A stretch of DNA of 64,000 nucleotides from Christensenellaceae bacterium (lineage in GTDB: Bacteria > Bacillota > Clostridia > Christensenellales > UBA1242): positions 11,276 through 75,275 of the forward strand of contig JAISHI010000014.1 of NCBI GenBank assembly GCA_031262595.1, given 5' to 3'. The position numbers and the translations under genes were made by a program. Position 1 is the first letter of the stretch, and every line of letters begins with the position of its first letter. Shown here one piece after another: positions 1 through 40,285 of this stretch. Below the pieces are notes generated by a model, which saw only the letters and a list, made by a program, of their open reading frames with translations, did no database searches and was not told the DNA's origin.

Positions 1-669
1 GCGGTTGCGGCTTAGATATTCCGCGACGCATTTATCGACAGTTCGCGCGGTTATCTCGGGCCAAAAGGATTTTATAAAAAGAAACTCGCTGTATGCCATT
101 TGCCAAAGCATAAAATTACTGATGCGCTGCTCGCCGCTCGTTCGGACAACAAGGTCGGGCGCGGGTAAGTTCGCGCCGTATAAATTGCGCGTTATAGCCT
201 CTTCGGTTATCGTTTTTGCGCCGCCCGAAATCGCTAAGTTAGCCGCGCGAACGATATCCGCGCGCCCGCCGTAATTTACGCAAAGATTTAAGATTATCGT
301 TTTATTATTCTTCGTTTCGTCGCAAACTTTTTTTATTATGCCCCTCATCTCATCGTCGAACACCGAAATATCGCCCATAGTTCTAACCGAAACGCCGAAT
401 TTTTGAAGTTTCGGCAACATTTCGGGCAGGCTAGTTTTAACAATATTAAAAATGTCGTCGATTTCGGCTTGTTCGCGATTCCAATTCTCCGTCGAGAACG
501 CGAAAACGGAAACGACTTCGATATTATGAAAAATACATCGTTTTACGACATCTAAAATTTTATTAAACCCAATTTTATGACCAACCGCACGCGAAAAGCC
601 CTTAGTTTTTGCCCATCTTCGGTTGCCGTCCATTATAAATGCAATGTGCCGAAGTGGTTTTTTAGTCAT
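1..669 (-). CDS. uppS: undecaprenyl-diphosphate synthase (isoprenyl transferase); 3' end runs off the window
   Basis: Absent from the ORF track because there is no stop inside the window. My translation from the ATG at 669 gives MTKKPLRHIAFIMDGNRRWAKTKGFSRAVGHKIGF...FAFSTENWNR. DGNRRWA and FSTENW are UPPS signatures. I checked that the frame stays open to base 1. Confidence 0.85.
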   Translation of the reverse strand, partial: MTKKPLRHIAFIMDGNRRWAKTKGFSRAVGHKIGFNKILDVVKRCIFHNIEVVSVFAFSTENWNREQAEIDDIFNIVKTSLPEMLPKLQKFGVSVRTMGDISVFDDEMRGIIKKVCDETKNNKTIILNLCVNYGGRADIVRAANLAISGGAKTITEEAITRNLYGANLPAPDLVVRTSGEQRISNFMLWQMAYSEFLFIKSFWPEITARTVDKCVAEYLSRNR

Positions 670-674
670 TAAAA

Positions 675-1250
675 TTAAATCTCCATTATTTCGCTTTCTT
701 TTTTCGCTAAGAGTTTATCAACCGTCGCAATATAACTGTCGAGTTGCTTTTGGATGTCCGTTTCGATACTTTTAACGTCGTCCTCGCTGAGTTTTTCGGC
801 GGTTTTAATCTTTTTAATCGCGTCCATAACGTTGCGACGATCGTTTCGCATAGTAATTCGCGTTTCTTCCGCGATTTTGCGAACTTGTTTCGCGAGTTCT
901 TTTCGGCGTTCCTCAGTTAGTTGCGGGAAAATCATGCGAATAACGCGCCCATCGTCGATTGGATTTGTGCCGAGTTCAGCCTTCGAAAGCGCACGGCTTG
1001 CTTCTCTAAGTATTGCCGTATCCCAAAGATTTATAACAATGGTTCGGGCGTCGGAACAAGAGATATTCGCCAAGTTTTTAAGCGGCGTCGGCGTTCCGAA
1101 ATATTCGACGGAAACGCGCTCGACTATCCCCGTATTAACCCGACCGGCGCGGATGAGCGCAAACTCGTGCGAAAGATGTTCGCTGCGGTTCGCGAGGTTG
1201 TCCTCGAATTCGAGCATCGCGATGTTAACTGCTTCACTTAAATAATCCAT
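675..1250 (-). CDS. frr: ribosome recycling factor
   Basis: ORF 675..1307 reads as RRF (...VEYFGTPTPLKNLANISCSDARTIVINLWD...). I prefer the ATG at 1250 (MDYLSEAV..., 191 aa, normal RRF length) over the TTG at 1307. The start is uncertain. Confidence 0.85.
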   Translation of the reverse strand: MDYLSEAVNIAMLEFEDNLANRSEHLSHEFALIRAGRVNTGIVERVSVEYFGTPTPLKNLANISCSDARTIVINLWDTAILREASRALSKAELGTNPIDDGRVIRMIFPQLTEERRKELAKQVRKIAEETRITMRNDRRNVMDAIKKIKTAEKLSEDDVKSIETDIQKQLDSYIATVDKLLAKKESEIMEI

Positions 1251-1310
1251 ACTTTTATATATCATAATGCGCGCGAAGTTGGCAAATTGTTTTTTGTTCG
1301 CGCGCAATTT

Positions 1311-2357
1311 TTAAGTTATCCGAACCTCCGCGCGGGTGAAATTCATTCCGCAAAACGTTTCACAGGCACAAATGCCCGTCGCCGCGGCGATATCCATAAC
1401 GCGCTGCCCTTTTTCGTTTGAAATGATGACGACGGACTTCCCGAGTGGTTTTTTTATCTCCCTCACGTCGACGAAAAAATAATCCATGCAAACGCGCCCT
1501 AGAACCCGAACGGGTTTTCCGTCGACCGTAACGAAATTTGTCCCTTTATATTTAAAATTTACGATATCCGCATACCCGCAAGCGACGACGCCGATTCGCA
1601 TAGTTTCAGGCGCGATAAAAGTTCCGTCATACCCAACGCTCTCCCCTTTTTTAAGCGTTTTAACGACGACAATCTCCCCCGAAATTTTAACGGCAGTCTT
1701 ATAACCGCCGTATCCGCCGTAAAGCAGTTTCCCGACGCGAACCATATCGAATTGGCATTCGGGTATTTCGGAGGTTCCGCTCGCGGCGAAATGAATAAGG
1801 GCGCTTGGATAAAAATTTTTAAAAAACCTAACGAAAGCGTTAAACTTATTTAGCGTTTCCTTAACTTTTTGCGGATTATCCGCCTCAAACGGGCAATGCG
1901 AATAAAGCCCCTCAACGCTTATAAGCGGACTTCCCTGGCAAATCTCAATCAACTTTTTTAGTTGTAAAATACTTTTTAAGCCGAACCGGTTCATTCCGCA
2001 GTCGACTTTTATATGAACGCGGGCTGGGCGGTTTTTTGCGGCGAGTTTAAGGAGTTCCGCACTACTGCCGATTGTAATTATTCCGCCGAGGTTAATCGCG
2101 GTTTCGTAATCCTCGCAAACGCCGAGAAGGAGAACATCTTTCGTTATGCCCGCCGTTCGAAGGTTCGCAAGCTCCCGCGTTTTAACGACGGCAAAACAAT
2201 CGACCTTATCGTTTAAAAGCCGCGATATAATCTTATCACCGAGCGAATAAGCGTTCGCCTTAACAACCGCGCAAATCTTAACGCCGCGCCTTAATTTCCC
2301 GCGTAATTGTTTTATGTTGTCGTAAATTGCGCTCCGCGATATTTCTGCTTTTATCAT
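1311..2357 (-). CDS. alr: alanine racemase
   Basis: 348 aa. Contains the PLP-lysine motif AVVKANAYSLG and shows overall Alr-like N-barrel/C-domain similarity. Confidence 0.8.
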   Translation of the reverse strand: MIKAEISRSAIYDNIKQLRGKLRRGVKICAVVKANAYSLGDKIISRLLNDKVDCFAVVKTRELANLRTAGITKDVLLLGVCEDYETAINLGGIITIGSSAELLKLAAKNRPARVHIKVDCGMNRFGLKSILQLKKLIEICQGSPLISVEGLYSHCPFEADNPQKVKETLNKFNAFVRFFKNFYPSALIHFAASGTSEIPECQFDMVRVGKLLYGGYGGYKTAVKISGEIVVVKTLKKGESVGYDGTFIAPETMRIGVVACGYADIVNFKYKGTNFVTVDGKPVRVLGRVCMDYFFVDVREIKKPLGKSVVIISNEKGQRVMDIAAATGICACETFCGMNFTRAEVRIT

Positions 2358-2385
2358 AAGTTTTAATATGTTAAAATCCTAATAT

Positions 2386-2886
2386 ATGCGCATAATTTCG
2401 GGAAAATTTAAGGGAAAACAACTAAAAGAAGTCGGCGACGGAACGCGCCCGACGCGGGATTTTGTTCGCGAGAACGTTTTTAATATCTTAGGTTCGCGAG
2501 TTATCGGCGCGGAAGTCCTCGATTGTTTCGCGGGGACGGGCGCTTACGGAATCGAGGCGATAAGTAGGGGCGCGAAAAACGCAACGTTTTTCGATATAAA
2601 TCCGCGGGCTTGCGATATAATCCGCGCTAACCTTAAAAATATAAATGAAAAACAAGAAGTTAAATGCAAAAACTTTATAACCGCGAAAATCGAGAAGAAA
2701 TTCGATATAATCTTTATTGACCCGCCTTACGACAGCGGGCTTTACGAAAAAACCATTCAAAAAATCGAAAAGCAAAGCCTTTTAAAAGACGGTGGCATTA
2801 TCGTTATCGAAACCCCGCGCGATTTTAATATCGAAAATTCTAGCCGAACGGTATTTTATGGGTCAAGCGCGGTTCATTTCATCTAA
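2386..2886 (+). CDS. rsmD: 16S rRNA (guanine966-N2)-methyltransferase RsmD family
   Basis: 166 aa. Has the AdoMet-binding stretch LDCFAGTGAYGIEAISRG and the DPPY motif (FIDPPYDSG). Confidence 0.8.
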   Translation: MRIISGKFKGKQLKEVGDGTRPTRDFVRENVFNILGSRVIGAEVLDCFAGTGAYGIEAISRGAKNATFFDINPRACDIIRANLKNINEKQEVKCKNFITAKIEKKFDIIFIDPPYDSGLYEKTIQKIEKQSLLKDGGIIVIETPRDFNIENSSRTVFYGSSAVHFI

Positions 2887-2889
2887 CAA

Positions 2890-2995
2890 GTTTCGCGCGA
2901 ATTTTCGAGGCAGAAAGCGACTTCTTTCGCGGGAAGTTTAGTAACCTAAACGACCAAGAAAAACAGGCGCTTTATGACCGAAAAGACGCCGAAAC
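2890..2995. repeat. copy A of a ~105-nt structured intergenic repeat, ending directly at the secA stop codon
   Basis: About 80% identical by hand alignment to 11396..11500. It is bounded by GTTTCG...CGAAAC and contains hairpins GAAAG/CTTTC, GTTTAG-taac-CTAAAC and GGCG...CGCC. On the minus strand the last hairpin is followed by TGTTTTTC. Confidence 0.7.
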
Positions 2996-5656
2996 TTATT
3001 TCGCGCCGCAGCAGTTTTTGTATTTTTTGCCCGACCCACAAGGACAAGGGTCGTTGCGGTCGGGTTGTTTTTGGCGCGCATCGGTTTTAACTGTTCCTTG
3101 CGGCATTGCGAAAGCTGGCTTTCGAACCGGCATCGGCGTAGCGCGATGAACTTCAACGTTAACCTTAAATAGGAAGAGCGCGACGTCGTTGTTTATGCTC
3201 TCAATCATGTTATTGAACATAACGATTGCCTCGCGGCGGTATTCTATAAGCGGGTCTTTTTGCCCATAACCGCGCAGCCCAATCCCCGAGCGCAGTTGCA
3301 TCATCGCGTCGATATGGTCAGTCCATTTTTTATCAACGATTTGCAGTAGAATATCGCGTTCGATTTTCTTAAAATCAATGCCGTTTTCTTTAACTTTTTC
3401 GATTTTCTCTTCGTATTTTTCCGTCATCGCGTCGAGTATCATGCCCTCGACTTCGTCTGGCGTTGCGTCAAGCGTATTTTCCGCGGTTAAATATTGAACC
3501 TCTTCTCCGAAAAGTTTCGAGCCTAAAACTTGGTTGGCTTTTTCTAAATCCCATTCCCGATAAGTTAACGAATAATCAATCGCCTCGCGCGTTATTTTAG
3601 AAACGATATCTGGGAAGAATTGTAAAATTTGCTCATGGACATCAACGCCGTCGAGGATTCGGTTGCGTTCTTTATAAATGAGTTCGCGTTGGTCGTTCAT
3701 AACGTTATCGTATTGGAAAGTATTGCGCCGCGCGTCGAAATAAAAGCCCTCAACACGTTTTTGAACGCGCTCGAAAAGGTTTGTCATAAGACGGCTTTGA
3801 ACGTCGTCGAGGTTCATGAAACGCATTGCCCCGCCGATAACGTCTTTCCCAAACCGTTTAATAATCTCGTCCTCGCAAGAAATATAGAAAATACTCGAAC
3901 CCGGGTCGCCTTGTCGGCCCGCACGCCCGCGTAATTGGTTGTCGATTCGGCGGCTGTCGTGGCGTTCCGTTCCGATAATATGAAGCCCGCCGAGTTCTTG
4001 GACTTCGAGTTTCTCTTCGTTAGTTATCTTTTTAAACTTATCGTAATGCTCTTTAAAGCGTTTTCGAAGGCTAAGAATTTCTTCGTTATCCGTATCCGCG
4101 AAACTTGTTGCGTCCGCGATTTGAACGGCGTCGAGCCCTTCCTTTTCGAGCGCTTGGCGCGCCAAATAGTCAGGGTTTCCGCCGAGTAAAATATCCGTTC
4201 CGCGCCCCGCCATGTTCGTCGCAATCGTAACTGCGCCGAGTTTACCCGCTTGCGCAACGATATCCGCCTCTTGTTCGTGGTTTTTCGCGTTAAGAACGGT
4301 ATGCGGAATGCCTTTTTGTTTAAGATAACGGCTGATTTGTTCGCTCTTATCGATTGTTGTCGTTCCGATTAAAACGGGTTGCTTGCGTTCGAAGCGATAT
4401 ATAACGTCCTCGTAAATCGCGGACAACTTCCCGTCCATGTTTTGGAAAATAACGTCCGGCGCATCGTCGCGAACTGTCGTTCTATTAGTTGGGATACAAA
4501 CAACATCGACGCCGTAGATTTTTTGGAACTCAGTTTCTTCGGTTTTCGCGGTTCCTGTCATGCCCGAGAGTTTTTTATAGAGTTTAAAGAGGTTTTGGAT
4601 TGTTATCGTTGCGATTGTTTTGTCTTCGTTCTTAATTTTAACGCCTTCTTTAGCCTCAATCGCTTGGTGAAGCCCGTCGCTATAACGGCGCCCAACCATC
4701 GCGCGACCTGTGTTTTGGTCAACGATTAAAATCTCGCCATCTTTCGAAACTAAATAATCCGCGCCGTCGATAAAAACGTGATGCGCACGGAGGGCGTTAT
4801 CGATGAAATGGTTAAGTTCCATGTTCTCTGCGCTGGAAATATTATCAAGCCCAAACGCACGCTCGGCTTTCGCGATACCTTCTTCCGTTAGGCGAACTGC
4901 GCGCTCTTTAAGGTCAATTTCATAGTCGTCGTCTTTAAGCGTTCGGACGAATTTATCACAAACCTTATAAAGGTCGCTATTGTCTTTTGTTGGCGCACTC
5001 ATAATAAGCGGCGTTCGGCTTTCGTCGATTAAAATACTATCAACCTCGTCGACAATCGCGAAGTTAAGCCCGCGAAGGCAACGCGCGTCCTTGCTGTGGG
5101 CGCAATTATCGCGCAAATAATCGAAACCAACCTCGCTTGACGTTACATAAGTTATGTCACAAGCATAGGCTTTTTGTTTTTCCGTTCCATGCGTATGCGC
5201 GCGGGATAAACCAACAGTCAGCCCTAAAAACCTATGAACCTTACCCATCCATTCGCTGTTTCGGCGGGCGAGATATTCGTTAACTTCGACGATATGAACG
5301 CCGTTTCCTTTAAGTGCGTTTAAGTAAGCCGGCATAGTCGAAACAAGCGTCTTACCCTCACCCGTTTTCATCTCGGCGATACGGCCTTGGTGCAAGCAAA
5401 TTCCGCCCATGATTTGAACCGGATATGCCCGTTGCCCTAAAACGCGCCAACCCGCCTCGCGAACGGTCGCGAACGCCTCCGGCAAAATATCGTCGAGCGT
5501 TTCGCCCTTCGAGAGTCGCTGCTTAAACGTCGCGGTCATGCCTATAAGTTCGGCGTCGGTTTTCGCCTTATAAACTTCCTCTAAATCTAAGACTTTATCC
5601 GCGATTCGCGAAATTTTCTTTAAATGTCTTGCGTTGTCGTTTCCAAATAATCCCAT
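2996..5656 (-). CDS. secA: preprotein translocase ATPase SecA
   Basis: 886 aa with full-length SecA similarity and the C-terminal zinc finger CPCGSGKKYKNCCG. Confidence 0.97.
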   Translation of the reverse strand: MGLFGNDNARHLKKISRIADKVLDLEEVYKAKTDAELIGMTATFKQRLSKGETLDDILPEAFATVREAGWRVLGQRAYPVQIMGGICLHQGRIAEMKTGEGKTLVSTMPAYLNALKGNGVHIVEVNEYLARRNSEWMGKVHRFLGLTVGLSRAHTHGTEKQKAYACDITYVTSSEVGFDYLRDNCAHSKDARCLRGLNFAIVDEVDSILIDESRTPLIMSAPTKDNSDLYKVCDKFVRTLKDDDYEIDLKERAVRLTEEGIAKAERAFGLDNISSAENMELNHFIDNALRAHHVFIDGADYLVSKDGEILIVDQNTGRAMVGRRYSDGLHQAIEAKEGVKIKNEDKTIATITIQNLFKLYKKLSGMTGTAKTEETEFQKIYGVDVVCIPTNRTTVRDDAPDVIFQNMDGKLSAIYEDVIYRFERKQPVLIGTTTIDKSEQISRYLKQKGIPHTVLNAKNHEQEADIVAQAGKLGAVTIATNMAGRGTDILLGGNPDYLARQALEKEGLDAVQIADATSFADTDNEEILSLRKRFKEHYDKFKKITNEEKLEVQELGGLHIIGTERHDSRRIDNQLRGRAGRQGDPGSSIFYISCEDEIIKRFGKDVIGGAMRFMNLDDVQSRLMTNLFERVQKRVEGFYFDARRNTFQYDNVMNDQRELIYKERNRILDGVDVHEQILQFFPDIVSKITREAIDYSLTYREWDLEKANQVLGSKLFGEEVQYLTAENTLDATPDEVEGMILDAMTEKYEEKIEKVKENGIDFKKIERDILLQIVDKKWTDHIDAMMQLRSGIGLRGYGQKDPLIEYRREAIVMFNNMIESINNDVALFLFKVNVEVHRATPMPVRKPAFAMPQGTVKTDARQKQPDRNDPCPCGSGKKYKNCCGAK

Positions 5657-5730
5657 ACAACTTAATTATAGCGCAAATGGCTCTATGAATACAACAATAA
5701 TTTTTCGCCACGCGGATTGAGAAATTATTA

Positions 5731-5760
5731 TTGACCCAACACACAGAGTTGTGTTATTTT
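5731..5760 (+). promoter_or_regulatory. putative sigma-A promoter of the islet (TTGACC-18-TGtTATTTT) with a palindrome in the spacer
   Basis: TTGACC at 5731-5736 and extended -10 TGtTATTTT at 5752-5760. The spacer contains AACACAcagagtTGTGTT. Confidence 0.4.
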
Positions 5761-5765
5761 TATTT

Positions 5766-5920
5766 CGGTCAAGCACTATACATAAATCTTGTCGGTAAAC
5801 GGAGATTTGTTTTTGCCAATTCTGGCGGAACTTCTCACTTCGTTTACCGAAGTTTAGTGCTTGACCGCATTGGGAGGTTTAGCCATATTGGACTGTGCCT
5901 CCCGCAAGGGAGGCACTTTT
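5766..5920 (+). promoter_or_regulatory. unclassified structured 5' leader: long composite hairpin plus anti-sequestor/terminator-sequestor switch
   Basis: A 13-bp perfect stem (5766-5778/5855-5867) encloses a 9-bp perfect stem (5793-5801/5841-5849). GGGAGG at 5872-5877 competes with GGGAGG at 5908-5913 for CCTCCC at 5898-5903. Confidence 0.5.
5895..5920 (+). terminator. intrinsic terminator / SD-sequestering hairpin
   Basis: GTGCCTCCC-GCAA-GGGAGGCAC followed by TTTT. The 3' arm contains the GGAGG located 8 nt before the ATG at 5922. Confidence 0.6.
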
Positions 5921-5921
5921 A

Positions 5922-6479
5922 ATGAAAAAAGTTTTACGAACGTTAATAGTTTTAATCATCGTATTGTGTGCGCCGTTGATGTTGGTAGCGTGTGAAGGCA
6001 AGCAATCTTTTGCCAAACATAAAGGTATCTACACATTAACATCTATTGATGTTGTCGTTACAGATTTAGGGGGTCTAGGGAAAAAAGGAGGTCTCCAATA
6101 CTTCAATGATGTCCTCAAGTGGAACATCTTACAACATGCAAGAAGTGTTTGTGCAGGCGGATTTCTTGCAATTACTGACGACGGGAAATTCATAACAAAA
6201 ATATTCACCTTCGATAATGCCTATTCTGGAGTTTTGCAAACCATTCCAACTGGTGGTATTGGAAGCGATTTTGTTATCGGGGAAGAATATATAACATTCT
6301 ATGAATATAATAACAACCAACAACGAGTGCCATACCTACAGTTACAATATAGTGCAAATAAAATAGTCTACACGATTGATGACCCGTATACTCTAGGTGT
6401 ATGGTCAGGGGATACAGAAGGTGCTGAATATAGTTATGTATTAACATTTACAAAAGAAATCACTTCAATTAGTGTATAA
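5922..6479 (+). CDS. lipoprotein of unknown function (185 aa)
   Basis: Signal peptide with lipobox MKKVLRTLIVLIIVLCAPLMLVAC|EG. The GGAGG SD sits 8 nt upstream. CpG-poor composition, unlike the flanking genes. The 5895 start in the ORF track lies inside the terminator hairpin, so I reject it. Confidence 0.7.
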   Translation: MKKVLRTLIVLIIVLCAPLMLVACEGKQSFAKHKGIYTLTSIDVVVTDLGGLGKKGGLQYFNDVLKWNILQHARSVCAGGFLAITDDGKFITKIFTFDNAYSGVLQTIPTGGIGSDFVIGEEYITFYEYNNNQQRVPYLQLQYSANKIVYTIDDPYTLGVWSGDTEGAEYSYVLTFTKEITSISV

Positions 6480-6492
6480 AAGGAGAATAAAA

Positions 6493-6783
6493 ATGAAAGA
6501 TATAATTACAGGGGATCAAAAAATATACAGGACCGACAAAGAAGTATTGTGTGTATGCATAATTGACCGTAGAACGCAAAAGCAGGACACATATGAGGTC
6601 GATTATGACGCAGAGAGAGATTTGCAACCGGTCATAATGGAAACGCAAAGCGCACAGGTCACCATCGGAGAAAAGTATCGTTGGGATTATTATACAAACC
6701 TACACCCGCAAGAACTTCCCGTATATATCCAAAATATTGCTTTGTCTGATATTACACCGAAGGTTTGCATTATAAAATCATAG
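6493..6783 (+). CDS. hypothetical protein (96 aa)
   Basis: AAGGAG SD lies upstream of the ATG at 6493 (MKDIITGDQKIYRTDKE...). It shares the CpG-poor composition of the preceding gene. I recognise no family. Confidence 0.55.
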   Translation: MKDIITGDQKIYRTDKEVLCVCIIDRRTQKQDTYEVDYDAERDLQPVIMETQSAQVTIGEKYRWDYYTNLHPQELPVYIQNIALSDITPKVCIIKS

Positions 6784-6785
6784 TG

Positions 6786-6815
6786 TTGCAAAAGCGCGGG
6801 GGTTTACTATATAAT
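6786..6815 (+). promoter_or_regulatory. putative valS promoter TTGCAA-18-TATAAT, 8 nt from the ATG (leaderless geometry)
   Basis: TTGCAA at 6786-6791, TATAAT at 6810-6815, ATG at 6824. There is no SD. Confidence 0.45.
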
Positions 6816-6823
6816 AGAGAATT

Positions 6824-9340
6824 ATGGAAAAGAATTTTGACTTCGAGCGGGCTGAGCGCGAGATTAACGCGCGTTGGCTTGAGCGAGAAACCTTTAAAGC
6901 GAATAATAAGAGCGACAAAGCGCCTTATACGGTTATTATGCCGCCGCCGAATATTACAGCGCGCCTTCATATCGGGCACGCGTTTAACGCGACGATTGAG
7001 GACGCGATTATTCGGTTTAAACGAATGCAAGGTTTCGAGGCGTTGCTGCTGCCAGGGGCTGATCACGCCGCGATTGCGACGGAAGTTAAGGTCGTTGAGG
7101 AATTACGCAAACAAGGCATCGAAAAAGCCAGCCTAACGCGCGAGCAGTTCTCGGTTTATATCGAAACTTGGTATCAAAAATATCTCGGCGAGATTTGCGA
7201 ACAATTTAAGGGCCTCGGCTTATCGGCGGATTGGTCGCGCTTTTCGTTTACAATGGACGACAACAACAAAGCCCACGTTCGCCGCGCGTTTAAGAAACTT
7301 TATGACGAGGGCTATATCTATAAAGGAACGCGAATGGTTAACTGGTGCCCCGTTTGCGAAACCGCGCTTTCCGATGCCGAAGTTGAGTTCGAGGAAATGC
7401 AACGCAGCCTTTACGAAATTAAATACGGCGATTTAGTTGTTGCGACAACGCGGCCCGAAACTATGTTTGGCGATACCGCTGTTGCCGTTAACCCGAGCGA
7501 CAAGCGATACGCAAAACTCGTCGGGTCTTTCGTCGAAATTCCGTTAACGAATAAAAAAATCCCGATTATCGCCGACGAGAGCGTTGACATAAAATTCGGA
7601 ACGGGCGCGCTTAAAATAACGCCTGCCCACGACCACAACGACAACGCGGTCGGCATAAAACATAACCTCGAGGCCGTTTGCGTTATCGACCAAAAAGGAA
7701 AGATGTGCGGCGACGCTCCAATTAAATATCACGGAATGACCGCCCTAGAAGCTCGAAAAGTTGTTGTCGCCGACCTTAAGGCCGCGGGGCTTTTAGTTTC
7801 GGTAAAACCGCATTCGAGCAACGTCGGGACTTGTTATCGTTGCCATAACCTAGTCGAGCCACAAATTTCCAGCCAATGGTTTATGAAGATGAAGGAACTC
7901 GCCCAACCGGCTATCGATTGCCTTAATAAAGGCTTAAATTTATATCCAAAAAAGTTCGAAAAAATCTATTTAAATTGGCTGAATAATATTAAGGACTGGT
8001 GCATCTCGCGCCAACTTTGGTCGGGGCATAAAATTCCCGTTTTTGAGTGCGGCGAATGCCGCAAGCGATTTGCGAGCGAATTTGAGCGTCCTATTTGTAG
8101 CTGCGGCGGAAAATGCTCGCAAGATAACGACGTTCTCGATACTTGGTTCTCGTCTGCCCTTTGGCCGTTTTCGACACTCGGCGCGCGCGGGAACAGCGAC
8201 GATTTTAAGAAGTTTTATCCAACCCAAACTATGGCAACCGCCTACGAGATTATTTTCTTTTGGGTTATTCGAATGGTTTTCTCGGGGCTTTATCATACCG
8301 AAAAATTGCCGTTCGAGAACGTCGTTCTTCATGGGCTTGTTAGAGACAGCAAGGGGCGAAAAATGAGTAAGTCGCTCGGCAACGGCATCGACCCGATGGT
8401 TATCATTAAAGAGTTCGGCGCGGATGTTTTGCGGTTCTCGCTGCTTAGCGGAACGAAACTCGACCGCGACCCGCGCTATTCAACGGAAAAGGCGATTCTA
8501 ACGCGCAACTTTATAAATAAGATTTGGAACGCAAGTAAGTTCATCGAAGCCTATGCGCTCGGCGCGGAAATTAGCGACCTTAAAATTGATTTCGCGAAGT
8601 TAGGGGCAGCGGATAAATGGATTTTAACGCAACTTAAAAAGGTTATTAAGGATACGACGGCGCGGTTCGAGAAGTTCGACATCGGCGTTGCTTGCGATTA
8701 TCTCGAGCGGTTTTTTTGGGGCGACGTTTGCGACGTTTATCTCGAGAGCGCGAAAGTTTCCGCGGATAAAAAACAAACCGCGCGGATTTTGCTCTTCGTT
8801 TTAAATAACTTCTTGCGTTTGTTGCACCCAATCATGCCGTTCGCGACGACAACCCTTTATAAGGAATTTTTCGATATCGAGGATGTCGCATTCGAGCCGT
8901 TCCCGAACGCAGAAGAGATTAAAGGCAACTTCGCGAAAGAAGCGCGCCTTTTCGAGGGTTATATTGCGCTTATAAAATATCTGCGCGACGCAAAAAAGAA
9001 AGATAATGCGCTTAAAACGGCGAATGTTTTCTCATCGGATTTAATCGACGGCGCGAATATCGCGATAATCGAAAAACTCTCGGCGGTTAAGATAGAACTT
9101 GAAAAAATCGCTAAACCCGACGCGGTTGTTTCGGAATTTAAAATACTCCTCGGCGTTGACGAAACTAAAAAGCGCGCGGAAATCGCGAAAAAAATCGACG
9201 AACTTAAATTCGAAATCGCGCGTAGCGAAAAAATGCTCGCTAACCCTGCGTTCGTTTCGAAAGCCCCCGCCGCCTTAATAAAAGCCGAGCAAGAAAAACT
9301 CGCCCGAAACGAAAGCCTACTAAAATCGCTAATTAACTAA
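6824..9340 (+). CDS. valS: valine--tRNA ligase
   Basis: 838 aa. Has the HIGH-type motif (PPPNITARLHIGHA), KMSKS, and the C-terminal coiled coil. Confidence 0.97.
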   Translation: MEKNFDFERAEREINARWLERETFKANNKSDKAPYTVIMPPPNITARLHIGHAFNATIEDAIIRFKRMQGFEALLLPGADHAAIATEVKVVEELRKQGIEKASLTREQFSVYIETWYQKYLGEICEQFKGLGLSADWSRFSFTMDDNNKAHVRRAFKKLYDEGYIYKGTRMVNWCPVCETALSDAEVEFEEMQRSLYEIKYGDLVVATTRPETMFGDTAVAVNPSDKRYAKLVGSFVEIPLTNKKIPIIADESVDIKFGTGALKITPAHDHNDNAVGIKHNLEAVCVIDQKGKMCGDAPIKYHGMTALEARKVVVADLKAAGLLVSVKPHSSNVGTCYRCHNLVEPQISSQWFMKMKELAQPAIDCLNKGLNLYPKKFEKIYLNWLNNIKDWCISRQLWSGHKIPVFECGECRKRFASEFERPICSCGGKCSQDNDVLDTWFSSALWPFSTLGARGNSDDFKKFYPTQTMATAYEIIFFWVIRMVFSGLYHTEKLPFENVVLHGLVRDSKGRKMSKSLGNGIDPMVIIKEFGADVLRFSLLSGTKLDRDPRYSTEKAILTRNFINKIWNASKFIEAYALGAEISDLKIDFAKLGAADKWILTQLKKVIKDTTARFEKFDIGVACDYLERFFWGDVCDVYLESAKVSADKKQTARILLFVLNNFLRLLHPIMPFATTTLYKEFFDIEDVAFEPFPNAEEIKGNFAKEARLFEGYIALIKYLRDAKKKDNALKTANVFSSDLIDGANIAIIEKLSAVKIELEKIAKPDAVVSEFKILLGVDETKKRAEIAKKIDELKFEIARSEKMLANPAFVSKAPAALIKAEQEKLARNESLLKSLIN

Positions 9341-9352
9341 AAATAAAATACC

Positions 9353-9384
9353 AAAACAAAACGCCGTTAATTCGGCGTTTTTTG
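9353..9384. terminator. bidirectional intrinsic terminator between valS and the M16 peptidase gene
   Basis: ACGCCG-ttaatt-CGGCGT flanked by an A-run and a T-run. Confidence 0.7.
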
Positions 9385-9387
9385 TAA

Positions 9388-10635
9388 TTAAACCTTTGCG
9401 CCGCCGACGCAGGCGTAAATTGCGTTCTCGAGTTTAAAAATTTCGCGCGCAAGTCCATTTAAGTCGTCAACGGTTATCGCGTCGATGATTTTTAGGTATT
9501 CCTCGTCGGTTGTTATCTTATTATATTCCGCGATGCTCTCGGCGTTTCGGAGGTTAACGCCCTCAACGCTTTCGCTCGCGAAAAGGCGGTTCGTGCGTTT
9601 TATCTTTTTAACTTTTTCGAGTTCTTCGGCTAAAACTCCCCCAGCGACGAGTTTTTGAACCTCTAATTTAACGGCGTCGATAACGCGTTTCGTATTTTTA
9701 GGCGTGCAAGAAAAATAGATATAAAAGTTTCCGCCAATCGGGGTTAGGTCAATTCCGCCGGAAATCGTATAAACGAGCCCTAATTTTTCGCGGATATTAA
9801 GAAAGAGACGCGAACTCATGTCGCCGGCGAAAACCTCCCGAAGTAGCGAAACCCCATAACGGCGGTCGTCGTTGCTGGAAATCGCTGGGAACATAATCAT
9901 AACGTTTTGTTGCGCGATTTTGCGCTTCCTAAAAACCTTCGACGGTGCGGGTTTTATTAACTGCTTCGCTGGTTTCGCGAGGTTTGGTAAATTCTTAGCC
10001 TTAAACTTACTCTCAAAATATTTCAAAACGAGTTCGTCGGCTTGCTTTTCCGTTATGTTGCCCGAAATCGCGATGATTGTATTTTGCGGTTTATAATGCT
10101 TCTTTATATAGTTGTAAATCGAGCTTGGTTTATAACCTTTTATTTGTTTCGCTGTGCCCGCGATTGGGTGCTCGTATTGCGTGCCCTTAAAATAGGTCGA
10201 GCCCGCGAGTTCGTAAAGCGCGCTGCGTGGATTATCATTATGCATCGCGATTTCTTGGCAAATAACCTCGGCTTCGCGTTCGAAATCGTCGTCGGGGAAC
10301 TTCAAATTAAAGTACATATCGCTTAAAATATCCATGCAAACCGGCGCGTTGTCGATAAGCCCGCGCGTGTGATAACAAGTCGAATCGCTCGAAGTCCATG
10401 CGTTATAATCGACGCCCTCATTCGAGAGCGTTTTCGCGATGTCCTCGCTTGTTCGGGTCGTCGTCCCTTTAAAGAGCATGTGCTCAACAAAATGCGAGAG
10501 CCCTTCTTCGCTAGGAATCTCGTTTTTACTCCCGACTTTAACTAGAACCGCAATCGAAACCGACGAAAAATTCGGCATTTCTTGGGTCAATAACCTAAGC
10601 CCAGACGGATAAACTTTTTCTTTAACTTCTTTCAT
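9388..10635 (-). CDS. M16 family zinc peptidase (pitrilysin-like)
   Basis: Carries the HxxEH motif (HFVEHMLFKGT). I prefer the ATG at 10635 (MKEVKEKVYPSGLRL...) over the TTG at 10671. Confidence 0.8.
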   Translation of the reverse strand: MKEVKEKVYPSGLRLLTQEMPNFSSVSIAVLVKVGSKNEIPSEEGLSHFVEHMLFKGTTTRTSEDIAKTLSNEGVDYNAWTSSDSTCYHTRGLIDNAPVCMDILSDMYFNLKFPDDDFEREAEVICQEIAMHNDNPRSALYELAGSTYFKGTQYEHPIAGTAKQIKGYKPSSIYNYIKKHYKPQNTIIAISGNITEKQADELVLKYFESKFKAKNLPNLAKPAKQLIKPAPSKVFRKRKIAQQNVMIMFPAISSNDDRRYGVSLLREVFAGDMSSRLFLNIREKLGLVYTISGGIDLTPIGGNFYIYFSCTPKNTKRVIDAVKLEVQKLVAGGVLAEELEKVKKIKRTNRLFASESVEGVNLRNAESIAEYNKITTDEEYLKIIDAITVDDLNGLAREIFKLENAIYACVGGAKV

Positions 10636-10682
10636 AATCCCTATAATATCATAATTTTTTTGCGCGAACAATACAAATTATT

Positions 10683-11378
10683 ATGCGACCAAACCGAACT
10701 TTTATAACGAACGCCGCAATCGGGCTTATGCTTATCGGGCTTTTTGCGGTTGTTTCGTTCGTCGATTTAAGTTCAACCTTTATCTCCGTCGAAGCGCCTG
10801 TTTATAGCGGCAAAAGCGAAACGAAAAGCGTCGCATTTATGTTTAATGTTTATGAAAACGAGGAAACTGTGCGCGAGATTATGAAAGTTCTCGAGGAAAA
10901 CAACGCGAGTGCAACCTTTTTTGTTGGCGGGAAGTGGGCAAAAGATAACCTCAGCACCGTTATAGAGATTGGCAAAAAATTCGAGCTCGGTAATCACGGT
11001 TATTCGCACGCCGAACTCGCGATTTCAAACGTCGAAAAAATAACGCAAGAACTTTCGGCGACCCATAAAATCGTTAAGGGCGCAACCGGCATCGAGATGA
11101 AACTTTTCGCTCCCCCAAGCGGCCATTTTAATAAAACGACGCTTTCTGTCGCGGAAAAACTCGGCTATACGACAGTTATGTGGACTCAAGGCAAGGACAC
11201 AATCGATTGGCGCGACCACGACAAAGACCTTATAATTAAGCGCGCGACGCGGGACGCGAAAAACGGCGATTTAATCTTAATGCACCCAACCGCCGAAACA
11301 CTAGAAGCCCTGCCTGATATAATAAATTTTTATACTAATAATAAATTTTCTATGGAAAAAGTCAGCGAGATTATTTAA
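10683..11378 (+). CDS. pdaB: polysaccharide deacetylase, PdaB-like (sporulation type)
   Basis: N-terminal TM segment and a NodB-homology domain with the PdaB-type first motif (FMFNVYENEE instead of TFDDG), followed by ATFFVGGKW and GNHGYSH. Confidence 0.65.
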   Translation: MRPNRTFITNAAIGLMLIGLFAVVSFVDLSSTFISVEAPVYSGKSETKSVAFMFNVYENEETVREIMKVLEENNASATFFVGGKWAKDNLSTVIEIGKKFELGNHGYSHAELAISNVEKITQELSATHKIVKGATGIEMKLFAPPSGHFNKTTLSVAEKLGYTTVMWTQGKDTIDWRDHDKDLIIKRATRDAKNGDLILMHPTAETLEALPDIINFYTNNKFSMEKVSEII

Positions 11379-11395
11379 GATTTAGGTTGCGGGGC

Positions 11396-11500
11396 GTTTC
11401 GAGCGGATTTTCGAGATAGAAAACAAGCGTTTTGAGGAAAGTTTAGTAAGACCTAAACGACCGAAAAACACGCGTTTTATAGCCGAAAAGACGCCGAAAC
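11396..11500. repeat. copy B of the ~105-nt structured intergenic repeat, ending 3 nt from the stop of the desulfurase gene
   Basis: Aligns to 2890..2995. Same GTTTCG...CGAAAC ends, same GTTTAG/CTAAAC hairpin, and a near-identical last ~37 nt. Confidence 0.7.
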
Positions 11501-11503
11501 GTA

Positions 11504-12613
11504 TTATAACGAATAATTCTTTATTATTTCGCTTAATATCTCGCAAAAGTTTAGGATTTCCGCCTCCGTATTATATGCGCCGAGGCTAACACGAATCGTT
11601 TTTTTCGCGTCGGCCGCGCTTATCCCCATAGCCGATAAAACGCGGTTTTGCTTTGCGTTCGACGAACAAGCGCTCCCGAGCCCGACGAAAATACCGCGCG
11701 CGGACAACGCGTTTAAAACGGTTGCGCCGAGCAATTTTTCAAACCGCAAACTCGTTATAAATGGGTTGTCGTTGTCGCCGTTGGTTTCGACGCCGCTGGG
11801 CAAGTTCGTTATTAGTGTTTTATGTAATTTAGAAACCTTCGCGCGGAAATCGTTTTGCGCCCATTCGGCGATGGCTTGCCGAAACCCGAAAATTGCCGGA
11901 TTATTTATCGTTCCTGCGCGTAAGTTTTGTTGGTGCCCGCCGAAAATGAGCGGTTTAATCTTTACGCCTTTTTTAATCCAAAGTGCGCCAACCCCTTTCG
12001 GGCCGTTAATTTTATGCGCGGAAATAGTTGCGCTAGAAAACTTTTCGCAATCAAAATCGAACTTCATAAAACCTTGAACAAAATCGAGGTGAAGATGCGT
12101 TTTCGGGTTTTTCGCGCGGATAATTTCCGCCGCGCGATTTAGGTCGACCTTCGTTCCCGTCTCACCATTGCAAAAACTTAAAACAACGAGCCGCGTTTTC
12201 TCGCAAACTTTCTCGGCTAAATCGTTAAGGTCAAGTCCGCCGCCCTTCGTCAACTTAATATATTTAACGATAACTCCGCGCCCCTCGAGTTCGCGCGCAG
12301 GCTCGATAACTGAACTATGGTCGAGGCTTGAAACGACAATCTCGTCGCCCGTTTTATAGTTTAGCCCGAAAAGCACCATATTATTGCTCTCCGTTGCCCC
12401 GCTCGTCCAAACAACTTCGCCCTCCGCGCTCGAAATTATCTTCGCGACCTCCTCGCTAGCCGACAAAACCGCCTTCGCAACCGAAACTCCGCCGGCGTAA
12501 GGCGTTGCGCTGTTAAAATAACCTTGCGCCTCCGCTTTGTTCATCGCCGCCAAAACGCTGTCGAAAGGTTTCGTCGTCGCCGCGTTATCTAAATATATAA
12601 TTTCGTTTCCCAC
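11504..12613 (-). CDS. cysteine desulfurase (class V aminotransferase, NifS/IscS-like)
   Basis: PLP lysine in SAHKINGPKGVGAL and active-site Cys in GLGSACSS. The apparent start codon is GTG. Confidence 0.8.
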   Translation of the reverse strand: MGNEIIYLDNAATTKPFDSVLAAMNKAEAQGYFNSATPYAGGVSVAKAVLSASEEVAKIISSAEGEVVWTSGATESNNMVLFGLNYKTGDEIVVSSLDHSSVIEPARELEGRGVIVKYIKLTKGGGLDLNDLAEKVCEKTRLVVLSFCNGETGTKVDLNRAAEIIRAKNPKTHLHLDFVQGFMKFDFDCEKFSSATISAHKINGPKGVGALWIKKGVKIKPLIFGGHQQNLRAGTINNPAIFGFRQAIAEWAQNDFRAKVSKLHKTLITNLPSGVETNGDNDNPFITSLRFEKLLGATVLNALSARGIFVGLGSACSSNAKQNRVLSAMGISAADAKKTIRVSLGAYNTEAEILNFCEILSEIIKNYSL

Positions 12614-12660
12614 TAACCTATATTATAGCAAATTTATGCGAGTTGCAAGCACGGCAACAG

Positions 12661-13272
12661 TTAATTCGTCAACAAAATGCTCTCCGGAACTTCGCCGATT
12701 ATTATATTCTCGCAAAGGAGTATTTCGAGGTTGGCGGAGATTTTTGGGCGCTCGCCAAACCAAACGAGCTCGGCGGAGGTTTGGATTTTAACTTTTATCC
12801 TATGGCGCGTTTGGTTTATGCCCGCGCCCGTGAACTCGCTCTCGGGCACGCATTTAATAAACCCGAGCGGGCGCATCTTAACGCCGATAATTCGCCCGCG
12901 GTCGTTTAAGATAGAGATACCCGAAAGAGTTCCGAGCGGAATACCGATTTTTTTACGCAATTTATTCTCGAGATTTTCGTTCGCGACCGTCGCAACCCCG
13001 CGCAATAATTTATTTATCTCGAACGAATTTAGCGTTATGTTCGAGATTTTTCCGTTTTGATATGAAATTTCCGTTAGCGAGCGGAATGTTTCAGGCGTAA
13101 ACTCCGCCCCAAACGCCTCTTGAACTGCGGCGATACTACTCTCTTCGAGTTTTGCTTGCGCGAACCGAGCGGCAATCGGGCGAAAAACTTTCCTATCAAA
13201 AACTAAAAAAAATCCCGCCCCGCAAATGACGACAACTAAAAAAATGGTTGCGACTTTTTTTATCACAACCAT
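12661..13272 (-). CDS. yunB: sporulation protein YunB
   Basis: N-terminal TM segment plus the stretch IPLGTLSGISILNDRG...FTGAGINQTRHRIKVKI...IIIGEVP, which is typical of YunB. Confidence 0.7.
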   Translation of the reverse strand: MVVIKKVATIFLVVVICGAGFFLVFDRKVFRPIAARFAQAKLEESSIAAVQEAFGAEFTPETFRSLTEISYQNGKISNITLNSFEINKLLRGVATVANENLENKLRKKIGIPLGTLSGISILNDRGRIIGVKMRPLGFIKCVPESEFTGAGINQTRHRIKVKIQTSAELVWFGERPKISANLEILLCENIIIGEVPESILLTN

Positions 13273-13294
13273 TTATATGTTAATTTGCGGTTTT

Positions 13295-14020
13295 TTATTT
13301 TTTCTCTTCGACGGTATCGTATTCGATTTCGGTTGCACTTTTACCGAAGAAAACTCGCGCAAGGAATGCGGCTAAAACTGCCCCAATCATAGGAGCTAAA
13401 ATAAATACCCAAACTTGGCTCAGCGCGTCAATTCCGCCGAAAATCGCAACCCCAAGACTTCTCGCAGGATTAACCGACGTTCCCGTAAAATAGATGCCGA
13501 GTAAGTGAACGACTGTTAGCGCGAGCCCGATATAGATTGGTGCGAGGGATTTATTCGCGGTTTTCCGCGTCGCGGATAGGACAACTAAAACGAAAACCAT
13601 CGTTAAAATGACTTCGATTAAAAGCGCAATCCCTGCTTGCCCGAGTAAACTTGCGCTCGAGAACGCCATCTCATACGAGTTCGTTCCAAGATAACTAGCC
13701 CCGTTAAGCCCAATCGCCTCCGCAATCCCGAACAAAAGCGCGCCGCCGAGTATCGCCCCGAGGAATTGCGCGATAAGATAATAAACAAAATCCTTTATAC
13801 TTATCTTATTGTTGATGAGCATCGCGAACGAAACGGCTGGGTTGACATGACAACCGCTGACCGGCCCGATTATCGCGATTAAAACTAAAAGAGTTAAACC
13901 GAACGCCAAACTCGTCGCGACAATCGACCCGCCAGTATAGGCCGCAACCCCGCAAGCGATGAAAACGAGAACGGCTGTCCCGAAAAATTCCGCAATATAT
14001 TTCCTTAAATTATTCTTCAT
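13295..14020 (-). CDS. MIP-family channel (aquaporin/glycerol facilitator)
   Basis: Two NPA boxes (HVNPAVS and VNPARS) and six predicted TM segments. Confidence 0.9.
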   Translation of the reverse strand: MKNNLRKYIAEFFGTAVLVFIACGVAAYTGGSIVATSLAFGLTLLVLIAIIGPVSGCHVNPAVSFAMLINNKISIKDFVYYLIAQFLGAILGGALLFGIAEAIGLNGASYLGTNSYEMAFSSASLLGQAGIALLIEVILTMVFVLVVLSATRKTANKSLAPIYIGLALTVVHLLGIYFTGTSVNPARSLGVAIFGGIDALSQVWVFILAPMIGAVLAAFLARVFFGKSATEIEYDTVEEKK

Positions 14021-14073
14021 AATATGAATTATCCCCTTTTATATAAAACTTTAACCAATTTTTAAATAAATGT

Positions 14074-16686: not shown

Positions 16687-16702
16687 ACCTTAATTATGCA
16701 CT

Positions 16703-16722
16703 AAAAAAGCGGCAAGCGCCAC
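16703..16722 (-). terminator. intrinsic terminator after the ABC transporter gene
   Basis: On the minus strand: GTGGC-GCTT-GCCGC followed by TTTTTT. Confidence 0.55.
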
Positions 16723-16738
16723 TTATTTTTTGGTTGTA

Positions 16739-19700: not shown

Positions 19701-19747
19701 CCCTTTTTTGGGCGGTAAGTTTTTGAAACATTTTTTACACTTAACAT
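16739..19747 (-). CDS. fused ABC ATPase / FtsX-type (MacB-like) permease with a ~500-aa extracytoplasmic domain
   Basis: 1002 aa. Walker A GKSGSGKST, signature LSGGQKQR, Walker B ILADEPT. One TM segment is followed by a long hydrophilic domain and then a C-terminal FtsX-like TM bundle. Confidence 0.85.
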   Translation of the reverse strand: MLSVKNVSKTYRPKKGQAVKALQNVSVDFEDRGLVFVLGKSGSGKSTMLNVIGGLDSFDAGEIIIKGKSSKDFSGSDFDAYRNTFLGFIFQEYNILNDFNLEQNIELALQLQGRKRDDAAISKLLADVDLDGLQRRKVNELSGGQKQRIAIARALIKNPEIILADEPTGALDSATGIAIFDTLKELAKDKLVICVSHDREFAEEYGDRIIVMKDGKVLEDVKKTHAAPKNISENVKNVNDKAVLIKRGKEITDAEVKKIAEQIKAADGEVIITIDKKDSAEVRKTLRFDKDGNSEAFSPVKNTDLKIKEYNGRDLKLIKSHFSLGKAFKMGASATRKHPIRLIMTVLLASVSLVLFGVSATIGGYNRHQSMYDSITQAGNPTMFLTSDYNYKFAQSNGIEESSNGYGNSLHAFTEKEYENLKKLNPNIKMLPIIAQPNPSGYEAFTNNVFQFAKSINDYNAAYYMATKPNGKVVATDENKADFGLTLLAGEFPDTDAEVAITDYQYDMFTIVGYKIVDSNGMEGEKTQPDDITSASVMVGKTLRINGKIYTISGVVNTGYKTSDYKQLRDYATGEAKSDGNGGMADYMLQNAIRVMQQGSLSNALFFTQAGADTVPVESSYSNYYCMNINGSSAHLDESYVVKTLPVDDADTITYRTGESQASASGVVLGASGFSGALNIAGITSYWSSQNVYCPSQYNYQTSSYEYDSLIFFGEEYEFSDYDASTLAAELNEQLQEWFDEIDKVRIYPQSYNGSYNKLPEIKVIGITLDVNKIAELAYTTPSFVNSYGNQNSGAWYLPSEAAFNALTPAEAEKGTINSIAVKLTGDKKTDIAFLKSIIVPNPETAYYAGLKNQFSSIFDEFNGMIDELAKIFMYIAIAFAVFAALMMMNFIASSIVYKRREIGILRALGAKKSDVFSIFFSEALIICMINFVIAIVGTFTAVFFINKGTKAALGMPIQLLSFGFLQIIMVFGLALLVAWLGSLLPVWKIARKKPIDAINNR

Positions 19748-19797
19748 AAAGCGATTATATTATGCAGTTAAACATTTTTCAACAACTTTATATTGCC

Positions 19798-40211: not shown

Positions 40212-40285
40212 TGGAGCGGGTGAACGGAATCGGACCGTCGCAACAGGCTTGGAAGGCCAGTGTTCTACCATTGAACTACACCCGC
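40212..40285 (-). tRNA. tRNA-Gly (anticodon UCC), encoded CCA, with a non-canonical T-loop
   Basis: My fold gives GCGGGTG-TA-GTTC-AATGGTA-GAAC-A-CTGGC-CTTCCAA-GCCTG-TTGC-GACGG-TCCGATT-CCGTT-CACCCGC-T-CCA. Anomalies are C at position 55 and a U28:U42 mismatch. Confidence 0.8.

What the first reader, a model, noticed from the sequence alone, without database searches (positions are those of the whole stretch)
5657..6823. CpG-depleted two-gene islet between the secA and valS promoters, behind an unclassified structured leader with a GGGAGG / CCTCCC / GGGAGG switch
Bases ~5920-6790 are strongly depleted in CG dinucleotides. My hand count is roughly 14 in the ~560-bp first ORF, against about a dozen in the first 60 bp of valS. 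Codon choice also differs from every neighbour, so the segment looks horizontally acquired.

It encodes a lipoprotein (lipobox LVAC|EG) and a 96-aa protein. I cannot place either in a family.

The upstream region reads as follows:
- A TTGACC-18-TGtTATTTT promoter with a spacer palindrome, AACACA-cagagt-TGTGTT.
- A ~100-nt composite hairpin with a 13-bp perfect outer stem (5766-5778/5855-5867), a 9-bp perfect inner stem (5793-5801/5841-5849), GAGA/TCTC, an apical GCCA-attc-TGGC, and an asymmetric 14-nt vs 5-nt internal loop.
- GGGAGG at 5872-5877.
- A 9-bp GNRA-capped hairpin, GTGCCTCCC-GCAA-GGGAGGCAC, followed by TTTT. Its 3' arm is the only Shine-Dalgarno for the ATG 8 nt downstream.

Pairing the upstream GGGAGG with CCTCCC would both dissolve the terminator and free the SD. 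That is the layout of a riboswitch or attenuator expression platform. The sensor hairpin matches no riboswitch class I know.
Basis: partly seen in the sequence, partly recalled or inferred. Interest (0 to 1): 0.62.

Follow-up and report, generated by a model that had tools for sequence, protein, structure and literature searches.

The report
Foreign two-gene islet with orphan attenuator leader
A 1.1-kb piece of foreign DNA, wedged between the housekeeping genes secA and valS of an uncultured Christensenellaceae gut bacterium, carries two genes with no known relatives behind a strongly folded RNA leader that can adopt two mutually exclusive shapes (gene on or off); it exists as a single copy in public data, so it cannot be called a riboswitch.

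Summary

**Composition.** The islet (~5695-6785) is the strongest compositional outlier in the 64-kb window. It is not CpG-depleted in absolute terms (o/e 1.0); it lacks the host's unusual 2-fold CpG excess. ORF1 (5922-6479) is a lipoprotein and ORF2 (6493-6783) a 96-aa protein. Both are ORFans in searches of billions of proteins.

**Leader.**
- It matches no Rfam family.
- It folds far better than shuffles (z = -8.3).
- It holds two mutually exclusive structures. An anti-terminator (5871-5904, -19.1 kcal/mol) forms first during transcription. A terminator/SD-sequestering hairpin (5895-5916, -18.8; whole OFF state -24.5 vs -19.9) wins at equilibrium.
- An alternative pairing this strong arises in 2 of 5000 shuffles.

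**Limits.**
- The 102-nt 5' hairpin shares no nucleotide with the switch.
- It begins at the predicted transcription start.
- It is a rod with near-perfect stems, more like a 5' stabiliser or a protein/RNase site than a metabolite aptamer.
- No homologue of the leader or the genes was found anywhere, so covariation cannot be tested.

**Verdict.** This is a real, horizontally acquired cassette with an orphan attenuator-type leader. The riboswitch reading is unproven and, in my judgement, unlikely. Interest is moderate to low.

The parts
5665..5694 (-). secA promoter (context, left border of the islet): TTGTAT(5694-5689)-18-TATAAT(5670-5665). The -10 box ends 8 nt before the secA ATG (5656), with no SD, which indicates a leaderless mRNA.
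   Evidence: Read directly. The same layout occurs in relatives' secA (L082, L084, L085).
5731..5760 (+). Islet promoter P1: TTGACC-18-TATTTT with an extended -10 TG (5752-5753). The predicted start is about 5766-5768.
   Evidence: 9 of 12 matches, TG present. The transcription start is inferred and not mapped.
5738..5755 (.). 6-bp palindrome AACACA-cagagt-TGTGTT inside the promoter spacer. It is a possible operator.
   Evidence: a single occurrence in the window, 0.01 expected by chance. Function is inferred only.
5766..5867 (+). 102-nt rod-like 5'-terminal hairpin with three helices: P1 13 bp, P2 13 bp and P3 8 bp. Its 36 pairs include 3 G.U pairs. It has an asymmetric internal loop (about 13 nt vs 4-5 nt), a 6/7-nt internal loop and an AUUC tetraloop.
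   Evidence: dG is -47.5 kcal/mol on the + strand and -42.3 on the - strand. The G.U pairs would be A-C mismatches on the other strand, which favours a + strand RNA.
5872..5877 (+). GGGAGG #1: an SD-like hexamer with no canonical start codon behind it. It is the 5' strand of the anti-terminator.
   Evidence: AUU at 5887 and UUG at 5888 are the only near-cognate starts.
5871..5904 (+). Anti-terminator / anti-sequestor. The 8-bp helix 5871-5878 / 5897-5904 encloses the small hairpin 5880-5895. It consumes the whole 5' arm of the terminator.
   Evidence: -19.1 kcal/mol, and it is the MFE of the nascent transcript from 5902 to 5914; equalled by 2 of 5000 shuffles and 14 of 5000 random window 27-mers.
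5895..5920 (+). Terminator-like, SD-sequestering hairpin GUGCCUCCC-GCAA-GGGAGGCAC followed by UUUU. The SD GGGAGG (5908-5913) lies in the 3' arm.
   Evidence: the top-ranked terminator-like site in 20 kb.: -18.8 kcal/mol and pair probability 0.987; the SD is the most occluded among clear ATG-start SD-led genes in the window (P unpaired 0.02).
5868..5924 (+). Full OFF state. The helix CAUUGGGAG (5868-5876) / CUUUUAAUG (5916-5924) closes over the terminator and also pairs the AUG (5922-5924) with CAU (5868-5870).
   Evidence: -24.5/-24.6 kcal/mol against -19.9 for the forced anti-terminator state.
5922..6479 (+). ORF1, a 185-aa predicted lipoprotein (MKKVLRTLIVLIIVLCAPLMLVAC|EG). It is an ORFan.
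   Evidence: translation, lipobox L-V-A-C. Searches found no family or homologue apart from itself. The AF2 model has pLDDT 43 and is unusable.
6493..6783 (+). ORF2, a 96-aa protein with no signal peptide. Its SD AGGAG (6481-6485) lies 7 nt upstream. It is an ORFan.
   Evidence: Searches found no homologue. AF2 pLDDT is 43.
6786..6815 (+). valS promoter (context, right border): TTGCAA-18-TATAAT. The -10 box ends 8 nt before the valS ATG (6824), with no SD and no T-box. There is no terminator between ORF2 and valS.
   Evidence: 10 of 12 matches. Searches found no T-box here or in relatives. Searches found no terminator or structure in 6440-6830.

Best explanation
**What it is.** A small cassette of horizontally acquired DNA (about 5695-6785) sits exactly between the -35 boxes of two divergent, leaderless housekeeping promoters (secA and valS) in a Christensenellaceae MAG.

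**What it carries.**
- Its own extended -10 promoter.
- A roughly 155-nt 5' UTR.
- Two ORFan genes: a lipoprotein and a 96-aa cytoplasmic protein.

**How the 5' UTR works.** It is a cis-acting attenuator and translation gate built on an 'SD swap'.
1. During transcription, GGGAGG #1 pairs with CCUCCC first. This anti-terminator (5871-5904) leaves the true SD and the AUG free, which is the ON state.
2. Once the true SD (GGGAGG #2) is made, it can displace #1. That forms a 9-bp GNRA-capped hairpin followed by UUUU.
3. This hairpin terminates transcription and, in full-length RNA, buries both the SD and the AUG. That is the OFF state and the thermodynamic ground state.
4. The ON/OFF ratio is therefore set kinetically, or by a trans-acting factor that occupies GGGAGG #1 or stabilises the anti-terminator. 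Candidates are a protein, a 30S subunit or a small RNA. A small-molecule aptamer is less likely.

**Role of the big hairpin.** The 102-nt hairpin at the very 5' end is most likely a 5'-terminal stabiliser and/or a protein- or RNase III-recognised rod. It is probably not a ligand sensor.

**Shown and inferred.**
- Shown: the sequence features, the foreign composition, the fold energies and their mutual exclusivity, the rarity by chance, and the absence of known families.
- Inferred: the transcription start, actual termination, which factor (if any) tips the balance, and the role of the big hairpin.
For: **Foreign origin**
- Dinucleotide distance is 0.295 against a median of 0.071, the largest in the window.
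- CpG o/e is 1.0 in both genes and leader, against 2.0 in host genes and host intergenic DNA.
- GC3 is 0.34 versus 0.51-0.55.
- The neighbours are pure housekeeping genes: frr, alr, rsmD, secA, valS.
- The islet uses a long leader plus a strong SD, whereas secA, valS and many host operon-first genes are leaderless.

**Leader**
- The promoter is placed so that +1 falls at the first base of the hairpin.
- The fold z-score is -8.3.
- Three G.U pairs make the + strand 5 kcal/mol more stable than the - strand.
- The anti-terminator is the MFE of the nascent chain up to 5914 and the terminator is the MFE from 5918. The full states score -19.9 and -24.5 kcal/mol.
- An anti-terminator this strong appears in 2 of 5000 shuffles.
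- The triple motif is unique in the window and in 1.08 Mb of other loci.
- The SD is 98.7% paired at equilibrium. It is the most occluded among clear ATG-start SD-led genes in the window.
- The hairpin is the best terminator-like site in 20 kb.
Against: - There is only a single instance and no homologue, so there is no evolutionary evidence that any of these pairings is selected.
- All statistics on the switch are post hoc, because the motif was picked by eye first.
- The U-tract is short (UUUUAAU), so the hairpin may sequester the SD without terminating.
- No regulator gene lies in or next to the islet.
- The big hairpin has no demonstrated link to the switch.
- The transcription start is only predicted. 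A second promoter-like site (TTGACC-17-CATATT, 5861-5889) would give a transcript lacking GGGAGG #1.
Confidence: 0.5

Rival explanations
1. Metabolite-sensing riboswitch. The 102-nt hairpin would be a new aptamer class, and ligand binding would decide between anti-terminator and terminator.
For: - The expression-platform layout is real and non-random.
- The hairpin has two sizeable internal loops that could form a pocket.
- The internal-loop sequence CUUCUC (5831-5836) is complementary, with 2 G.U pairs, to GGGAGG #1. This could in principle couple hairpin to platform. The complementarity is my own reading, and the ~20% chance figure is my own estimate, not a tool computation.
- The host does use a classical SAM riboswitch elsewhere in the window.
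Against: - No Rfam match appears even at E <= 10.
- Hairpin (5766-5867) and anti-terminator (5871-5904) share no nucleotides, so folding of the 'aptamer' does not compete with the platform.
- The architecture is a rod of 13+13+8 bp near-perfect stems with no multi-helix junction or pseudoknot, which is atypical for metabolite aptamers (established knowledge).
- The downstream genes are ORFans with no metabolic hint.
- There are no homologues, hence no covariation.
Confidence: 0.1
2. There is no switch, only constitutive parts. These are a 5'-terminal stem-loop that protects the mRNA from 5'-dependent decay, a STAB-SD-like decoy SD (GGGAGG #1) that holds a 30S subunit, and a hairpin that damps ORF1 translation. 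As a leaky terminator, that hairpin also insulates downstream valS from the foreign promoter. The GGGAGG #1/CCUCCC complementarity would then be a by-product of having two SDs next to a hairpin that contains an anti-SD.
For: - The hairpin begins at the predicted +1.
- 5'-terminal stem-loops and STAB-SD elements are established stabilisers in Firmicutes (PMC4113751, read; Sharp and Bechhofer-type 5' stabilisers, from my own knowledge).
- There is no terminator between ORF2 and valS, so the leader hairpin is the only barrier between P1 and valS.
- Any SD-like hexamer is automatically complementary to an anti-SD arm.
Against: - The anti-terminator is more than a 6-mer match. Flanking G.U pairs and the nested hairpin bring it to -19.1 kcal/mol, matching the terminator almost exactly. 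Random or shuffled upstream segments rarely reach this.
- A 102-nt three-helix rod is far more than a stabiliser needs.
Confidence: 0.22
3. A small RNA gene. P1 to the terminator would give a free-standing RNA of about 155 nt (5766-5920) whose function is in trans. ORF1-ORF2 would then be expressed only by read-through or from another start.
For: The unit is compact: promoter, structured body and the best terminator-like site in 20 kb. It has an exposed G-rich single strand in the terminator conformation.
Against: - The terminator's 3' arm is the SD of ORF1 and the U-tract runs into its AUG, a layout typical of cis-acting leaders.
- There is no Rfam match.
- No target is identifiable and no homologues exist.
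Confidence: 0.08
4. A DNA-level palindrome. The inverted repeat would be a relic of the mechanism that delivered the cassette (a recombination site, attC-like element, MITE/IS end or replication-slippage product) with no RNA function.
For: - The outer arms are long and perfect (13/13), which is unusual for old functional RNAs.
- The repeat lies at the 5' border of the foreign DNA, at a synteny breakpoint.
- The metagenome scan returned a gammaproteobacterial MITE whose terminal inverted repeats begin with the same 13-14 nt, TAGTGCTTGACCG (L086).
Against: - There is only one copy in the window, even allowing 2 mismatches. nhmmer finds nothing in 1.08 Mb of loci or in the rest of the window.
- No target-site duplication or terminal repeats flank the islet, and no recombinase is nearby.
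- The outer arms do not fit the attC R''/R' cores (RYYYAAC/GTTRRRY), by direct reading.
- In L086 the arms belong to two adjacent elements and the sequence between them is not palindromic. Beyond 13-14 nt the sequences diverge.
- For inverted repeats the 24-nt pattern has only about 12 independent bases, so such hits are expected by chance. The other hit, L087, is a GC-rich contig-end palindrome.
- G.U pairs and asymmetric loops favour an RNA read on the + strand.
Confidence: 0.07
5. Leader-peptide coupling. GGGAGG #1 would be a working SD for an 11-codon upstream ORF, AUU(5887)...UAA(5920-5922), whose stop overlaps the ORF1 start (UAAUG). Ribosomes translating it would melt the sequestering hairpin and re-initiate at ORF1.
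For: AUU lies 9 nt after GGGAGG #1. That frame is open and ends in UAAUG on the ORF1 start (sequence).
Against: - The start codon is non-canonical. There is no AUG, GUG or in-frame UUG at proper spacing.
- The UAAUG overlap has roughly a 1-in-8 chance in A/T-rich sequence (my own estimate).
- No conservation data exist.
Confidence: 0.03

Closest known systems
Terminator/anti-terminator attenuator leaders of Firmicutes, i.e. protein-dependent leaders of the RAT/LicT-SacY, PyrR and TRAP type (from my own knowledge)
   Same: A 5' UTR in which an imperfect hairpin overlaps the 5' arm of an intrinsic terminator. The alternative structure is slightly less stable than the terminator (-19.9 vs -24.5 kcal/mol), so a trans-factor or kinetics must tip the balance. 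As in the TRAP-controlled trpE leader, the OFF structure also buries the SD.
   Different: There is no sequence resemblance to RAT, PyrR or TRAP (GAG/UAG repeat) sites, and no Rfam hit. No cognate regulator gene is nearby. The anti-terminator is built from a duplicate of the SD itself.
Riboswitch expression platforms, for example the SAM riboswitch at 49665-49751 in this same window
   Same: A leader with a structured 5' domain followed by a terminator just upstream of the SD and AUG.
   Different: The 5' domain matches no aptamer model and shares no strand with the platform. It is a simple rod and has no homologues.
STAB-SD of Bacillus thuringiensis cry3A, and 5'-terminal stem-loop mRNA stabilisers
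   Same: An SD-like sequence inside a 5' UTR that does not precede a canonical start codon, and a stable stem-loop at the extreme 5' end (PMC4113751; sequence).
   Different: Here the decoy SD is exactly complementary to the terminator's 5' arm and participates in a competing helix. STAB-SD acts only by holding a 30S subunit against RNase J1.
Small compositionally foreign ORFan islets (genomic islets), including the second one in this window next to tRNA-Gly
   Same: A cassette of 1 kb or less, with low GC and lacking the host dinucleotide signature. It has strong GGAGG-type SDs, no homologues and no mobility genes.
   Different: This one is not at a tRNA. It sits between two divergent housekeeping promoters, at a synteny breakpoint relative to the nearest relatives.

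Membership tests
Any described riboswitch or cis-regulatory RNA family (Rfam 15) | Match to the family covariance model | tested here: not met
   cmscan of 5600-6000 at E <= 10 gave only two spurious minus-strand sRNA hits (18.9 and 16.1 bits, against gathering scores of 72 and 63). The whole window at gathering threshold gave only a tRNA and a SAM riboswitch elsewhere.
Riboswitch (generic definition) | An expression platform with mutually exclusive terminator/sequestor and anti-terminator | tested here: met
   (-24.5 vs -19.9 kcal/mol, with the anti-terminator as the MFE of the nascent RNA). (2 of 5000 shuffles).
Riboswitch (generic definition) | Aptamer and platform compete for a shared strand, so that ligand binding is transmitted | tested here: not met
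   The hairpin spans 5766-5867 and the anti-terminator 5871-5904, with no shared nucleotide. Only a weak possible loop contact exists (CUUCUC 5831-5836 with GGGAGG). I estimate that contact would arise by chance about 20% of the time.
Riboswitch (generic definition) | Aptamer conserved with covarying stems across homologues | not testable with these tools
   No homologue was found in viral contigs, metagenome contigs (with two chance hits examined), phages or plasmids, or the 86 fetched loci and the rest of the window.
Riboswitch (generic definition) | Direct ligand binding | not testable with these tools
   This needs in-line probing or ITC.
T-box leader (expected for valS in many Firmicutes) | Match to RF00230, i.e. 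Stem I, specifier loop and the T-box anti-terminator sequence | tested here: not met
   No T-box hit appears at E <= 10 in 5600-6000 or anywhere in the window. Ten relatives' valS loci also lack one.
Intrinsic (Rho-independent) terminator | A GC-rich stem-loop followed directly by a U-tract | tested here: met
   The stem is 9 bp with 7 G-C pairs and a GCAA loop, followed by the tail TTTTAATG. It is the top-ranked site in 1-20000. The U-tract has only 4 consecutive U, so efficiency is uncertain.
Bacterial lipoprotein (ORF1) | An N-terminal signal peptide ending in a lipobox [LVI][ASTVI][GAS]C | tested here: met
   MKKVLRTLIVLIIVLCAPLMLVAC: positive n-region, hydrophobic core and L-V-A-C at residues 21-24. 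This was judged by reading; no dedicated predictor was available.
Horizontally acquired genomic islet | Composition deviating from the host (dinucleotide signature, codon use) | tested here: met
Horizontally acquired genomic islet | Absent from the same site in close relatives (an empty site) | tested here: inconclusive
   The closest ValRS in GTDB representatives is <= 50% identical and lacks secA nearby. The closest SecA in 5.8 billion clusters is 72-73% identical, and the three of the four such loci that show the upstream gene have spoIIE there. No strain-level comparator exists.
Horizontally acquired genomic islet | Mobility hallmarks (integrase, flanking direct repeats, tRNA target) | tested here: not met
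   No convincing flanking repeats. The neighbours are housekeeping genes. The only tRNA lies at 40212-40285.
Repeated element (MITE/REP) or integron attC | Multiple copies in the genome, or attC R''/R' core sites | tested here: not met
   A single copy with <= 2 mismatches. nhmmer finds nothing. The arms CGGTCAAGCACTA / TAGTGCTTGACCG do not contain RYYYAAC/GTTRRRY. Only 64 kb of the genome could be examined.

The most novel reading that the evidence does not exclude
The 102-nt rod plus the 'SD-swap' platform could be the founding example of an undescribed class of cis-regulatory RNA that travels with mobile ORFan cassettes. In this reading the rod is bound by a host or cassette factor, or contacts GGGAGG #1 through its CUUCUC internal loop. 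That binding would decide whether the decoy SD is free to form the anti-terminator. The leader would then simultaneously gate transcription into the cassette (and into valS downstream) and translation of the lipoprotein.
Probability: 0.1. Interest if true: 0.6.

Novelty: new member of a known kind. Interest (0 to 1): 0.32.

Why it matters
If the switch is real, a freshly acquired ORFan cassette brings its own self-contained expression control. That control also shields an essential downstream gene (valS, with no terminator in between) from a foreign promoter. This would be a neat example of how foreign DNA is tolerated at a housekeeping locus.

It is also a clean synthetic-biology-style 'SD swap' design, in which the decoy SD is the anti-terminator strand.

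In practice it is a singleton in an uncultured termite- or gut-type MAG. It has no comparative support and no functional clue for the two proteins, so its value for now is as a candidate for reporter assays, not as a discovery.

The by-products may interest specialists as much as the leader:
- Leaderless secA and valS mRNAs that look conserved across this clade.
- An extreme CpG excess (rho about 2) in the host, which makes foreign DNA stand out.

Tried and rejected
**Searches that found nothing**
1. Rfam at E <= 10 on the leader, and at gathering threshold on the whole window.
2. Homologues of ORF1 and ORF2.
   - The word-indexed search of 5.8 billion clusters returned only the proteins themselves.
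   - Full HMMER over 1.84 billion representatives for ORF1 returned itself plus P0003. That is a 2322-aa repeat protein whose E = 1e-9 comes from 16 copies of a 33-residue 'DDGYTFTGWTGD'-type repeat matching ORF1 147-179. I rejected it as repeat-inflated local similarity.
   - Pfam, PHROGs, NCBIfam, PADLOC and PDB sequences gave nothing usable.
   - tblastn against phages and IMG/VR gave nothing.
3. blastn of the whole islet against phages and plasmids gave no match.

**Structure prediction.** The single-sequence AlphaFold2 models have pLDDT 43 for both proteins, so I did not run fold searches, which would be meaningless.

**Leader homologues**
- Two viral scans found nothing.
L087 is a GC-rich contig-end palindrome inside an ABC-ATPase gene. 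L086 holds the ends of two adjacent gammaproteobacterial MITEs.
- The source contig is not in that collection, so this negative result is weak.
- nhmmer of the leader against 1.08 Mb of fetched loci and the rest of the window found nothing.

**Empty-site test.** The valS-anchored scan of GTDB genomes and the SecA relatives were all too distant, and the adjacency is not conserved.

**Ideas rejected**
- A degenerate T-box feeding valS.
- attC, repeat or MITE identity.
- A canonical leader peptide, because there is no AUG or GUG at SD spacing.

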